A stretch of 24,613 nt of DNA. Source: Elusimicrobiota bacterium (GTDB lineage Bacteria; Elusimicrobiota; Elusimicrobia; Elusimicrobiales; UBA9959). A program made the translations under genes and the position numbers. Below the pieces are notes generated by a model that did no database searches, was not told the DNA's origin, and worked only from the letters and a program-made list of their open reading frames with translations. The stretch lies in NCBI GenBank assembly GCA_027340875.1, contig DAIENX010000109.1, positions 1 to 24,613 of the forward strand. Reading direction: 5' to 3'. Positions 1,592-24,318 of the stretch are shown piece after piece (position 1 is the stretch's first letter; every line of letters starts with the position of its first letter).

Positions 1592-1625
1592 AGGAAGGCC
1601 CGGCAATGCCGGGCCTTCCTCTTTT
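1592..1625 (+). terminator. Rho-independent terminator after the multiheme cytochrome gene
   Basis: 14-bp inverted repeat aggaaggcccggca-a-tgccgggccttcct followed by ctttt, 22 nt after the stop. Confidence 0.75.
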
Positions 1626-1880
1626 ATCCTCTCCGTCAGAAACCACGGGGCTTTTTAAGGCCGTGCATGAATGGCAGTTCGGAGCTAAACAGAGGCTGGT
1701 TTTCCTTGATGCGCGGGTGGCGGCGGATTCGGGTGCGGAGGGCCGTCGCGCAGGCCCGAGCTTGCGGAGCGTGAGGGCCGAGCGGGAGCGCGGCCACGGT
1801 GTGGCCGATAGCGTGCCCGACGACCCGAACCGCCGACAGGACCCGCGCACATGCGGTAGCATCCAGAAGCCACGGCCTTA
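1622..1880 (+). repeat. Structured non-coding element, copy 1 (candidate ncRNA or MITE-like repeat; stem-bounded core 1657-1879)
   Basis: Intergenic between convergent genes. Terminal inverted repeat taaggccgtg (1656-1665) / cacggcctta (1871-1880). Nested stems gcgcgggt/acccgcgc and cggcgg/ccgccg, and hairpin cggccac-ggt-gtggccg. Homologous to the reverse complement of 23013-23270. Confidence 0.8.
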
Positions 1881-1892
1881 TAGCGGGGAGTT

Positions 1893-2621
1893 TTATTTGT
1901 CGTCGTGCGGCTGGGTCGCCCTGCCCGCGGCCAGCGAGACCCAGATGCTCAGCTCGTAAAGGGCCAGCATCGGGGCCGCGAACATCAGCATGTTGAAGAT
2001 GTCGGAGGTCGGGGTGATCACCGCGGCCGTTATCAGGATGGCCACTATCGCGTAGCGGTACTTCCCGCGCAGGAAGCGGTGATCTATCACGCCCAGCCGG
2101 GTCAGCACGTAGCTGAGCACCGGCATCTCGAAGACCAGGCCGCAGCCCAGCGCGGTCCAGACCACGAACGAGATGTAGCTCTGTGCGGAGATCATCGGCA
2201 GCAGGTCCGGGCCGGCGAAGCCGAGCAGGAACTTGAGCGCCGGGGGTATCAGCACGAAGAACGAGAACAGCACTCCGGCAGCGAAGGAGGCGGTAACGGC
2301 GGCCACGAAGAGGGCCGGCCCTTTCCTGAGGCGGCCGGTCATGGCCGGCTCGACGAACTTCCAGGCCTGGTACAGCAGGAACGGCATGGAGGCCGCGAGC
2401 CCGGCAGCGAAGGAGATGTTAAGGTAGATGGCCAACGCCTCGGTGGGGGAGAAGAAGACCAGCTTCTGGACGCTGCCCTCCAGCGGCCGCCTGAGCAGCT
2501 GGAAAAAGTAGGAAGAGTAATTGAAGGAGATGCCCGCGGCGACGGCGAAAAAGACGAAGGAAGAGATCAGTCTCTTCCTCAGCTCGTCAAGATGGGCGGT
2601 CAGCGGCCGTTCCTGGTCCAT
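1893..2621 (-). CDS. tatC: Twin-arginine translocase subunit TatC
   Basis: PLTAHLDELRKRL, SPTE, YQAWKFVEP, GLVFEMP and AAVITPTSD motifs; about six hydrophobic segments. Confidence 0.96.
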   Translation of the reverse strand: MDQERPLTAHLDELRKRLISSFVFFAVAAGISFNYSSYFFQLLRRPLEGSVQKLVFFSPTEALAIYLNISFAAGLAASMPFLLYQAWKFVEPAMTGRLRKGPALFVAAVTASFAAGVLFSFFVLIPPALKFLLGFAGPDLLPMISAQSYISFVVWTALGCGLVFEMPVLSYVLTRLGVIDHRFLRGKYRYAIVAILITAAVITPTSDIFNMLMFAAPMLALYELSIWVSLAAGRATQPHDDK

Positions 2622-22731: not shown

Positions 22732-22763
22732 AAGCCCCGGTGAAAGCCGGGGCTTTTTATTTT
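22732..22763 (+). terminator. Rho-independent terminator
   Basis: aagccccgg-t-gaaa-g-ccggggctt followed by tttatttt. Confidence 0.88.
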
Positions 22764-22764
22764 G

Positions 22765-22788
22765 AAAGGGGTCAGGTCTTGATTTTTG
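22765..22788 (+). repeat. 24-nt direct repeat, left copy
   Basis: aaaggggtcaggtcttgatttttg, 23/24 identical to 24433-24456. Confidence 0.85.
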
Positions 22789-22839: not shown

Positions 22840-22868
22840 TTGACAAACATCAACCTGCCACTTATACT
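22840..22868 (+). promoter_or_regulatory. Near-consensus sigma70 promoter
   Basis: TTGACA (22840-22845), 17-nt spacer, TATACT (22863-22868). Confidence 0.75.
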
Positions 22869-23012
22869 ATTTTGCGGGGATATCATAATTGGGTTAAGTC
22901 CTTCAGTATAACGCAACAGCGGATCTGGTCCAGGCAGCCATCTTGCAGCAGGGAGCGGCGAAATGGGCGCAGGTAAGCGGGTGGAAATGAAAGCCTCAAT
23001 GGTCCCAGGGCG

Positions 23013-23270
23013 CAAGTCCGGGGCGTGGGGTTGTTTGGCGGCGCGCGGGTCCTGTCGGCGGTTTGTCTCGTCAGGCACGGCGTCGCGAACACCGTTCGCG
23101 CGCCTCCTCACTCGGTCGTCGCGCTTACGCAAGCTCCTCCCTGCGCGAAGGCCTTCCTCGCCAGAACCGCCGCCACCCGCGCATATCAGCCGCTGCCTAC
23201 GCCTGGCTCAAGGCTGTCATTCATACACGGACCTGAAAAATCCGGGGTTTTCTGTCATGGAAGATTAAAA
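23013..23270 (-). repeat. Structured non-coding element, copy 2 (inverted relative to copy 1; core 23013-23235)
   Basis: The reverse complement shares exact 18-nt and 21-nt blocks with 1709-1726 and 1828-1848. Outer stem caggtccg/cggacttg and hairpin cgcgaac-ggt-gttcgcg. Confidence 0.8.
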
Positions 23271-23283
23271 GGAGTAACGCGCT

Positions 23284-24318
23284 ATGAGAACTGCTAAATT
23301 CAAGACACTTTTTATGGCGGGAATGTTTCTCTGCCTGGCCGCCGCGGGATGGGCTCAGGAGCAAAGCAAAGGTCCCCGAATTATATTGGAAGAGGAAGAA
23401 GTAACGCTCTTTGATGATAGCGGAAAAGAATTGGGGAAACGCTATGTGAGTAAAATTGGGGAAGAAAAGCGTGTGATATTAAATCAGGTAAAAGAAAAGG
23501 TGCGGCGAAAACTTGGGGTTAAATCAGAGCAAGAGGTGCAAAAGAAAAGGTTATGGCGGAAGGCGAAAGAAGAAAATGAAAAGTTGATTAAAATCCAGGA
23601 ACTTAGCCAGCCTACACTGAAGTTTGCCGATAAAGATGGGAGGATTGTAAGGGAACTTAAACTCCGAAACATAACGGAACGCCATAAAGTTCCCTCTAGA
23701 AATGGTGATGAAAGTATTGAGGTTTCGTCAGAAAATATACAGGTTGCAATCTTGTCTGATTCCGGCAATGCGGCAGGTATTATTGGCATAGATGAAGTTA
23801 CAGCTTGGGATTCTAGAATTTCCTCTACAATGACCTTTGAATATTTTAATGCAAATGGAGAAAAGAAATGGTCTGTCAATCATATTAAACCCTGGGTCAA
23901 CTCCGATCCAAGAAGAAGCGCCATATTTTCGGCTGATGGTAAACGCGTGATACTGGCAATTGCGCGGTTGCCTCGCAATGCAGATATGGAGCTATATCCT
24001 AATTGGGTAGTTGTTTATGATGAGGCTGGGAAAGAGCTTGTGCGTTTTGGCCCATATGACCAGTTAAGAAACATGTACCTTTCAAAAAATGGACGATATG
24101 GGTATTTTGCTACAGGCAATTCATCAGTTTGTTTTTCGGTTGATAGCAAGGCTTTACACGAATTCCCTCAAGAGCGCGTTAAACGAGAGTTAAATGGGGT
24201 TATCCGAGTTTCAGAAACAGGGCACTGTACTATTAATAGGGTTGTGCTTCCTACAGAAATTAATGAGGACGGAGATCCAAAAACAAAAGTTGTGCGGGAA
24301 TTTTTGTTTAAGGAATAA
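23284..24318 (+). CDS. AT-rich secreted hypothetical protein (charged N-terminal part, beta-rich and possibly propeller-like C-terminal part)
   Basis: AAGGAG RBS, signal peptide (AGWA-Q), 344-aa ORF in AT-rich DNA, and repeated turn motifs LSDSG, FSADG, LSKNG and VSETG. Confidence 0.8.
   Translation: MRTAKFKTLFMAGMFLCLAAAGWAQEQSKGPRIILEEEEVTLFDDSGKELGKRYVSKIGEEKRVILNQVKEKVRRKLGVKSEQEVQKKRLWRKAKEENEKLIKIQELSQPTLKFADKDGRIVRELKLRNITERHKVPSRNGDESIEVSSENIQVAILSDSGNAAGIIGIDEVTAWDSRISSTMTFEYFNANGEKKWSVNHIKPWVNSDPRRSAIFSADGKRVILAIARLPRNADMELYPNWVVVYDEAGKELVRFGPYDQLRNMYLSKNGRYGYFATGNSSVCFSVDSKALHEFPQERVKRELNGVIRVSETGHCTINRVVLPTEINEDGDPKTKVVREFLFKE

What the first reader, a model, noticed from the sequence alone, without database searches (positions are those of the whole stretch)
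1622..1880. Unannotated 223-nt structured element present twice, with compensatory base-pair changes (copy 1)
Seen: 1622-1880 (+) is homologous to the reverse complement of 23013-23270. Exact shared blocks are atgcgcgggtggcggcgg (1709-1726 / 23167-23184) and aaccgccgacaggacccgcgc (1828-1848 / 23043-23063); these two blocks pair with each other across a gg/acagg internal loop. The hairpin cggccac-ggt-gtggccg (1791-1807) is cgcgaac-ggt-gttcgcg in copy 2: three consecutive pairs change on both sides (G-C to C-G, C-G to G-C, C-G to A-T) while acggtgt is invariant. The outermost stem also changes while staying paired (aaggccgtg/cacggcctt vs caggtccg/cggacttg), and both stem-bounded cores are 223 nt. 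A second arm (tcgcgcagg...cttgcg...cg[t/c]ga) shows a G-U/G-C exchange. Inference: selection acts on a long-stem, three-way-junction fold, as in a structured ncRNA family or an ssDNA-folding non-autonomous mobile element. I cannot match it to tRNA, SRP, RNase P, 6S, tmRNA or any riboswitch I know. Most G-U pairs favour the + strand for copy 1, but not all.
Basis: partly seen in the sequence, partly recalled or inferred. Interest (0 to 1): 0.88.

Follow-up and report, generated by a model that had tools for sequence, protein, structure and literature searches.

The report
Branched DNA repeat inside transposon remnant
The two look-alike stretches are not a new RNA gene but small gene-less transposon remnants that each enclose one copy of a Y-shaped repeat scattered dozens of times between the genes of these uncultured bacteria, a repeat that looks built to fold as single-stranded DNA and may be handled by a small nuclease of so far unknown function.

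Summary
The sequence observations hold, but the 259-nt span is a composite. Its middle (1709-1851; 23041-23184) is one of 84 intergenic copies of a Y-shaped repeat in this genome, found in 60 of 79 other genomes of this Elusimicrobiales family. It has no Rfam match. Its flanks are decayed IS200 left and right ends. The orthologous site in a close relative is empty. Covariation is strong (32 of 46 pairs). DNA mini-hairpin loops (63 versus 1 by strand), tandem G-A pairs and no preferred orientation to genes favour folding as ssDNA over RNA. Copies swap whole stem modules in place and host nested 21- and 46-nt mini-repeats. A stand-alone Slx1-like (UPF0213) GIY-YIG gene has a copy beside it in 18 of 36 genus genomes, but purM does in 10 of 29, so that link is unproven. 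The scan found this repeat before in two other genomes. Verdict: new variant of REP/REPIN/SRM-type repeats.

The parts
1628..1896 (+). Copy 1 composite: gene-less IS200 derivative (PATE-like) carrying one Y repeat
   Evidence: Absent from the orthologous cytochrome c/tatC gap in L032, 277-nt indel; ends match the intact IS200 in L075
1623..1627 (+). TTTAT motif abutting the left end (probable IS200 target motif)
   Evidence: Same motif before the LE of the intact IS200 in L075; TTTAT and TTCAT are IS605-family motifs in PMC10055086; role here inferred
1628..1708 (+). Decayed IS200 left end with subterminal hairpin (1643-1665)
   Evidence: Local alignment score 82.5 against the L075 LE; the 76 copies outside the window have mean 22.6, max 44
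1709..1851 (+). Y-shaped repeat core: long outer stem with tandem G-A internal loops, three-way junction, two arms
   Evidence: One of 84 copies in G000; covariation; DNA fold z -5.2
1747..1784 (+). Arm A with tandem G-A pairs, tipped by the GCGGAGC mini-hairpin at 1764-1770
   Evidence: an alternative register of the tip is possible
1791..1807 (+). Arm B hairpin; its GGT loop is the preferred insertion point of the 46-nt mini-repeat in other copies
   Evidence: 11 of 38 copies of the 46-mer sit directly after ACGGT inside a Y repeat
1852..1896 (+). Decayed IS200 right end, finishing in TTTAT
   Evidence: Best score of 78 copies against the L075 RE: 38.5; copies outside the window mean 17.8, max 30.5
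1592..1620 (+). Terminator-like hairpin of the upstream cytochrome c gene (neighbour, not part of the element)
   Evidence: a similar hairpin is all that fills the empty site in L032
22987..23263 (-). Copy 2 composite: same IS200-end/Y-repeat/IS200-end layout, ending in TTCAT
   Evidence: no syntenic site was available in the relatives searched
23185..23263 (-). Copy 2 IS200 left end
   Evidence: Top LE score, 84.0, of 78 copies
23041..23184 (-). Copy 2 Y-repeat core: same outermost blocks as copy 1, different inner modules
22987..23040 (-). Copy 2 IS200 right end (more decayed)
   Evidence: Second-best RE score, 36.0, of 78 copies
22840..22868 (+). Sigma70-like promoter (11 of 12) facing ORF 23284-24318, so copy 2 would be transcribed on its non-folding strand
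   Evidence: consensus match only

Best explanation
The span is a gene-less IS200 derivative (left end plus right end, transposase gene gone) whose interior holds one copy of an independent, high-copy Y-shaped repeat. The composite reached its sites as a unit, most likely by the IS200 single-strand 'peel and paste' route (inferred). The Y repeat is a REP/REPIN/SRM-like dispersed DNA element of about 140 nt core and about 175-200 nt inserted length. It is recognised as a folded single strand: long stem, tandem G-A pairs, three-way junction, GC-GNA-GC tips. Shown: copies come and go at orthologous intergenic sites, copies at one site exchange whole inner modules, and smaller hairpin repeats insert into loops and the junction. 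Inferred: a structure-specific nuclease nicks the folded strand, and repair from another copy or from the opposite arm both spreads the repeat and keeps the stems paired. The best candidate enzyme is the family's stand-alone Slx1-like (UPF0213) GIY-YIG protein; I put that step at about 0.35.
For: Copy number and place: 84 copies, 83 intergenic by my own gene calls. Orientation: 27 antisense versus 21 sense among copies inside co-directional gene runs; 7 of 7 doublets are back-to-back. Empty sites: indels of 197 nt (uvrB, 4 of 4 loci aligned), 183-187 (purM, 5 of 5), 194, 176 and 277 at the window site. IS200 ends: the L075 ORF is an IS200 transposase (144 bits, cut-off 55); the two window copies rank first and second of 78 for both ends; a core-less LE+RE remnant exists on C40. 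Folding strand: G-T 41 versus A-C 18 (p 0.004) and G-A 136 versus C-T 15 in 76 copies. DNA signature: GCGNAGC occurs 63 times on the folding strand and once on the other, 9.7 expected; such mini-hairpins melt at 76.5 C as DNA and r(GCGAAAGC) at 39 C (PMC13037366); tandem G-A and Watson-Crick pairs interchange at three columns. In-place swaps: C71:63264 versus L255 and C22 versus L401, and the copies flanking the GIY-YIG gene. No two of 56 near-full copies exceed 92% identity, and modules assort widely, with 15 of 16 closing-stem by arm-A cells filled. Enzyme: adjacent copy in 18 of 36 genus genomes, on both sides in 3, against 71 of 2443 genes in G000 and 0 of 30 Y1-transposase loci.
Against: No transcript or biochemical data. 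17 of 84 arm-A loops are GNRA-compatible, the RNA fold is as significant as the DNA fold (median z -5.1 versus -4.5), and RNAalifold prefers another register of the arm-A tip. CTTCGG occurs 17 times on the non-folding strand, 6.6 expected (not checked for loop position). Diverged relatives in other families keep the junction but not the GNA tips. No leading/lagging-strand bias (19 versus 14, p 0.49), unlike IS608-type elements. No IS200 transposase was found in G000 (92% complete). The enzyme link is confounded: the gene mostly sits at one inherited locus beside tRNA-Gln; purM has an adjacent copy in 10 of 29 relatives and the uvrB 3' end in at least 5 of 29; 0 of 11 GIY-YIG loci in three other repeat-bearing genera have one; and G048, G052 and G053 carry many copies with no gene found.
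Confidence: 0.75

Rival explanations
1. The Y core is a multi-copy structured RNA, or an element that moves or acts through RNA like bcr1 of Bacillus, and selection acts on the transcript.
For: Strong covariation; G-T favoured over A-C; 17 of 84 GNRA-compatible loops; the junction is conserved in other families while the DNA-type tips are not; bcr1 is described as transcribed, cruciform and compensatory (PMC3184786).
Against: No shared promoter or terminator flanks; sense and antisense placement about equal; both window copies lie on the strand opposite their likely transcript; 45 of 84 arm-A loops are 3-nt GNA or ANA; no reverse transcriptase found in G000; sites are empty in close relatives.
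Confidence: 0.15
2. It is an ssDNA repeat as described, but the GIY-YIG neighbour is a coincidence of one old insertion 3' of tRNA-Gln, and spread is due to another HUH enzyme or to host recombination. This differs from the best explanation only in the enzyme.
For: purM control 10 of 29; conserved locus; 3 of 45 tRNA/tmRNA genes in G000 have a copy just 3'; repeat-rich genomes lacking the gene; the G216 variant is not next to its GIY-YIG genes.
Against: Occupancy upstream of the gene (15 of 24 tRNA-adjacent loci) is the highest of the sites tested and extends to a second genus; 5 genomes also have a downstream copy; RAYT and IS200 loci have none (0 of 30); the close GIY-YIG clade (57% identity or more) and the repeat occur in the same 5 of 13 genera, though these may be one clade.
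Confidence: 0.45
3. The whole 223-259-nt span is one structured unit closed by the outermost stem, as first read.
For: The outer arms are complementary and 223 nt apart in both copies; the MFE of copy 1 forms that stem.
Against: The arms are the right half of the IS200 LE hairpin and the left half of the similar RE hairpin; 76 other copies lack these flanks; the full span of copy 2 folds no better than shuffles.
Confidence: 0.04

Closest known systems
NTS/SRM repeats with Ssn GIY-YIG ssDNA nucleases (Chenal et al. 2025, PMC11893778; parts 1-4 of 11 and passages read)
   Same: High-copy intergenic hairpin repeats with an orientation, lying beside a ~95-aa single-domain GIY-YIG gene, sometimes on both sides.
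   Different: SRMs are ~28-nt simple hairpins with a CGTCATT foot; this repeat is a 140-190-nt three-way junction without that motif. The protein here matches UPF0213 structures and is 32% identical to an Ssn-like protein with canonical SRM flanks in the same genus. Binding is untested.
REP/REPIN-RAYT systems (PMC3116915, PMC6006769; passages read)
   Same: Extragenic, inverted doublets, compensatory stems, long-lived single enzyme locus flanked by repeats.
   Different: Not associated with Y1/RAYT genes (0 of 30); the single copy is already a long branched unit; nested mini-repeats and module swapping.
PATEs, non-autonomous IS200/IS605 derivatives (PMC10055086; passages read)
   Same: The window composites have LE and RE hairpins with TTTAT/TTCAT motifs and no transposase gene.
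   Different: The interior is a foreign repeat, and only 2 of the 78 copies with scorable flanks have IS200 ends.
bcr1 of the Bacillus cereus group and ERIC (PMC3184786; passages read)
   Same: About 130-155-nt intergenic repeats with long stems; bcr1 is cruciform-like with compensatory changes and a non-conserved distribution.
   Different: bcr1 has 5-bp direct repeats and is treated as RNA-level; here no consistent target duplication and DNA-type loops.
Small dispersed repeats (SDR) of Nostoc (recalled; the paper was not found)
   Same: 21-27-nt structured repeats that insert into other repeats resemble the nested 21-23-nt and 46-nt inserts.
   Different: No sequence comparison was possible; resemblance only.

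Membership tests
IS200/IS605 non-autonomous derivative (window composite) | Left end with subterminal hairpin homologous to an intact IS200 | tested here: met
IS200/IS605 non-autonomous derivative (window composite) | Right-end hairpin ending in a TEM-like motif | tested here: met
   Ranks 1 and 2 of 78; decayed, margin over the third-ranked copy modest (36.0-38.5 versus 30.5)
IS200/IS605 non-autonomous derivative (window composite) | Empty orthologous site | tested here: met
   L032 for copy 1; the site is too diverged to read the joint base by base; no syntenic site for copy 2
IS200/IS605 non-autonomous derivative (window composite) | Cognate TnpA in the same genome | tested here: not met
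   The only Y1 hit in G000 is RAYT-like; no TnpB; genome 92% complete
Ssn/SRM system | NTS/SRM consensus hairpin | tested here: not met
   0 matches in the window with 3 mismatches allowed
Ssn/SRM system | Nuclease of the cd10448 clade | tested here: not met
   Best PDB matches are UPF0213 proteins 1ZG2 and 1YWL, called bacterial Slx1-family members in PMC1564403; separate long branch from the Ssn-like protein. CDD itself was not available.
Ssn/SRM system | Repeat flanks the small GIY-YIG gene | tested here: inconclusive
   18 of 36 genus genomes, but purM control 10 of 29 and a shared locus
Ssn/SRM system | ssDNA-specific binding and cleavage | not testable with these tools
   Needs purified protein
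REP/REPIN-RAYT | Extragenic, many copies, inverted doublets | tested here: met
REP/REPIN-RAYT | Flanks a Y1/RAYT transposase gene | tested here: not met
   0 of 30 loci by HMM; one weak partial CM hit away from the gene
Classical MITE | Fixed terminal inverted repeats plus target-site duplication | tested here: not met
   Clean insertion without duplication at uvrB, a possible 7-nt repeat at C20, heterogeneous ends elsewhere
Known Rfam ncRNA | Covariance-model match | tested here: not met
   0 at gathering score in the window; the 8 weak matches at E<=10 cover only the neighbouring terminator
Independent ncRNA gene | Discrete transcript from the folding strand | not testable with these tools
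   No RNA run holding the stretch was listed

The most novel reading that the evidence does not exclude
The stand-alone Slx1-like UPF0213 GIY-YIG protein, a widespread bacterial family without an assigned substrate in the papers found, is the partner nuclease of a branched ssDNA element. It would cut at the three-way junction and drive both spread and in-place exchange of stem modules among dozens of copies, while smaller hairpin repeats parasitise the loops. That would be a second GIY-YIG/repeat system beside Ssn/SRM, with a far more complex DNA substrate, and a natural case of combinatorial evolution of a DNA fold.
Probability: 0.3. Interest if true: 0.8.

Novelty: new variant of a known kind. 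Interest (0 to 1): 0.45.

Why it matters
It removes a false ncRNA candidate and shows that textbook-looking covariation can come from a DNA repeat that swaps whole stems between copies. The repeat is unusually elaborate for a bacterial ssDNA element: a three-way junction, tandem G-A pairs and nested mini-repeats. It offers a concrete, cheap-to-test substrate for UPF0213 nucleases. No description of the repeat turned up in Rfam or in paper searches (open-access library only; supplements not seen). The scan itself noted the family in two other genomes.

Tried and rejected
Rfam at gathering and E-value thresholds: nothing on the element. RAYT/Y1 transposase as partner: the one gene in G000 has different flanking palindromes, and 0 of 30 genus loci carry the repeat. 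TnpB and reverse transcriptase: not found in G000; the IS91 search was uninformative because its control rang nowhere. omegaRNA reading: rejected because only the two window copies are followed by an IS right end. Phage, plasmid and viral-contig collections: no match. RNA runs: no RNA holder listed, so no reads were laid. Replication-strand bias: none seen. A first stem-mismatch script was noisy and was replaced. The 'Bbase' module typing was unreliable and is not used. tRNA-site test: where other DNA separates tRNA-Gln from the GIY-YIG gene, 1 of 10 informative loci has a copy at the tRNA (14 fetched; 4 truncated or set aside), but most have none at the gene either, so it does not decide. The protein tree is too short to resolve. 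Metagenome loci: 5 of 29 examined (of 80 returned) had adjacent copies, largely duplicating genomes already counted. ORFs overlapping the element (1606-1959, 22963-23268) have no Pfam match.

Full report
Observation. The two copies are 72% identical over 235 nt. Rfam has no match at gathering score, and its weak matches cover only the terminator at 1592-1620. Copy 1 lies between a multiheme cytochrome c gene and a convergent tatC. The titled TatC relatives nearest to this genome are Elusimicrobia/Elusimicrobiales records.

The core is a high-copy repeat. Iterative nhmmer from the two 142-nt cores finds 84 copies at E<=0.01 in the 2.8-Mb genome and none in the reversed genome. With my own gene calls, 83 of 84 are intergenic. 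Of 72 with neighbours on both sides, 27 are antisense and 21 sense within co-directional runs, 18 lie between convergent genes and 6 between divergent ones; the background is 41 convergent and 118 divergent of 426 gaps. All 7 close pairs are back-to-back. BLAST finds it in 24 of 24 same-genus and 0 of 16 other-family genomes. A covariance model finds it in 60 of 79 family genomes, 5 of 13 genera, and in 8 of 149 genomes drawn across the phylum, 4 of them outside the family. Those distant forms keep the junction but have other arm tips. Phage, plasmid and viral collections gave nothing.

The flanks are IS200 ends. The 5' flank matches the left end of an element in L075 whose ORF is an IS200/IS605 transposase. 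Scored against that element's ends, the two window copies rank first and second of 78 copies for both the left end (82.5 and 84.0; others at most 44) and the right end (38.5 and 36.0; others at most 30.5). A left-end-plus-right-end remnant with no core exists on C40. The ends abut TTTAT/TTAAT and finish in TTTAT/TTCAT, the kind of motifs described for IS605-family elements (PMC10055086, passages). In L032 (TatC 95% identical) the same two genes are separated only by a terminator hairpin, a 277-nt difference. G000 has no IS200 transposase or TnpB that I could find, so the composites are probably stranded.

The fold is real. On 31 copies from the genus, 32 of 46 named pairs change on both sides, 0 of 500 shuffles reach any measure, and slid controls fall to 34-47% paired against 85% (related sequences inflate the shuffle test). 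In 76 near-full G000 copies, isolated stem mismatches are G-T 41 versus A-C 18 (p 0.004), and G-A mismatches number 136 versus C-T 15. The + strand folds better in 72 of 75 copies.

DNA or RNA. For DNA: GCGNAGC occurs 63 times on the folding strand and once on the other, 9.7 expected, and 78 of 84 copies carry a GC(G/A)N1-2AGC tip. 45 of 84 arm-A loops are 3-nt GNA or ANA. These motifs are very stable as DNA (76.5 C) and much less so as RNA (39 C for the 8-mer) (PMC13037366, passages). Tandem G-A pairs interchange with Watson-Crick pairs and slide by one column. The same GA-GC-GAA-GC motif sits in the IS200 left end, a known ssDNA substrate class. Neither window copy lies on its likely transcribed strand. 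For RNA: 17 of 84 loops are GNRA-compatible, RNA z-scores are as good, RNAalifold picks another tip register, CTTCGG is enriched on the opposite strand, and distant forms lack the tips. Weinberg et al. note that ssDNA and RNA motifs are hard to tell apart computationally (PMC5737381, passages). No RNA run was available. I put DNA at about five to one.

How copies evolve. Seven other G000 copies that I aligned to relatives' loci show indels of 161-315 nt; the cleanest are 197 nt before uvrB (4 of 4 loci aligned, no duplication) and 183-187 nt before purM (5 of 5). The inserted unit is therefore about 175-200 nt with variable ends. No two of 56 near-full copies exceed 92% identity (median nearest neighbour 81%), so this is no recent burst. 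Closing stem, arm A and arm B alleles occur in most combinations, with some linkage. At the same site in close relatives, flanks and outer stem can be nearly identical while inner modules differ wholesale (C71:63264 versus L255; C22 versus L401). The same holds on both sides of the GIY-YIG gene. C51 versus C6 shows it within G000, but these may be mixed strains (5.5% contamination). 28 of 84 copies carry nested inserts, 27 a 21-23-nt hairpin and 13 a 46-nt element that has 38 copies genome-wide.

Candidate enzyme. Of five mobile-element families searched in G000, only a 93-aa GIY-YIG gene has a copy beside it, 43 nt upstream on the opposite strand. Its closest solved relatives are UPF0213 proteins 1ZG2 and 1YWL, described as stand-alone bacterial Slx1-family members (PMC1564403, passages). 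Slx1 cleaves branched DNA (PMC6902002, abstract start only). It is not an Ssn: an Ssn-like gene with canonical inverted SRM flanks in G058 is 32% identical. A copy lies within about 50 nt of the gene in 18 of 36 other genus genomes, on both sides in 3, and in 3 of 6 genomes of a second genus. The G000 background is 71 of 2443 genes, and Y1 loci give 0 of 30. The close clade and the repeat share the same 5 of 13 genera, and G058 lacks both.

Against the enzyme link. The gene mostly stays at one spoVG-tRNA-Gln locus, so these counts are not independent, and the upstream copy is also just 3' of a tRNA. Two controls were chosen because G000 has a copy beside them: purM has an adjacent copy in 10 of 29 relatives, and uvrB in 0 of 29 upstream but at least 5 of 29 at its 3' end. 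In three other repeat-bearing genera 0 of 11 gene loci have a copy, and three 89-92% complete genomes have many copies with no gene found. The link is a lead, about 0.35.

Comparison and verdict. It works like REP/REPIN (PMC3116915, PMC6006769; passages) and NTS/SRM repeats (PMC11893778; parts 1-4 of 11), but fails their defining tests (no RAYT, no SRM motif, other nuclease clade) and lacks MITE target duplications. The window composites qualify as IS200 derivatives. The scan reported this repeat family in two other genomes; by their summaries they did not mention the IS200 ends, module swapping or the nuclease lead. Novelty: new variant of a known kind. Interest 0.45; 0.8 if the UPF0213 link proves true (probability 0.3).

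Noticed in passing
G000 genome-wide, e.g. L308:172-263 and L309: A 46-nt hairpin element with two GC-ATA-GC-type tips has 38 copies; it inserts into loops of the Y repeat, into itself and in tandem. A 21-23-nt GA-GC-GAA-GC-GA hairpin behaves alike.
   Followed up: partly
G000 C33:6022-6143, C44:8766-8925, C66:43053-43272: Copies lie beside uvrA and uvrB and beside the long GIY-YIG gene on C66, probably uvrC. Post hoc; the uvrB upstream site is empty in 29 of 29 relatives, so probably chance.
   Followed up: partly
L306 (G000 C40:3370-3530, minus strand) and L307 (C66:35763-35840): A core-less IS200 left-end-plus-right-end remnant and a lone left end of the same IS200 family.
   Followed up: yes
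L031:1420-1445 and 2115-2185: A RAYT-like Y1 transposase gene flanked by its own short palindromes, unrelated to the Y repeat.
   Followed up: partly
L297:1410-1775: An Ssn-like GIY-YIG gene with canonical inverted SRM hairpins in G058, one of two genus genomes where the Y repeat was not found.
   Followed up: partly
L280:200-1150 (G216): A diverged back-to-back Y-repeat pair with a second repeat family nested between and beside the copies.
   Followed up: no
window 23284-24318 (+): A 344-aa ORF with a signal-peptide-like start, in lower-GC DNA, with no Pfam or NCBIfam match; copy 2 sits between it and its likely promoter.
   Followed up: no
window 22762-22785: A GACCTGACCCC-type motif next to a terminator, recalled as typical of RAYT-associated palindromes (label from memory).
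   Followed up: no
spoVG-tRNA-Gln locus (L370-L383): In many relatives 1-5 kb of other DNA separates tRNA-Gln from the GIY-YIG gene, suggesting an integration hotspot.
   Followed up: no
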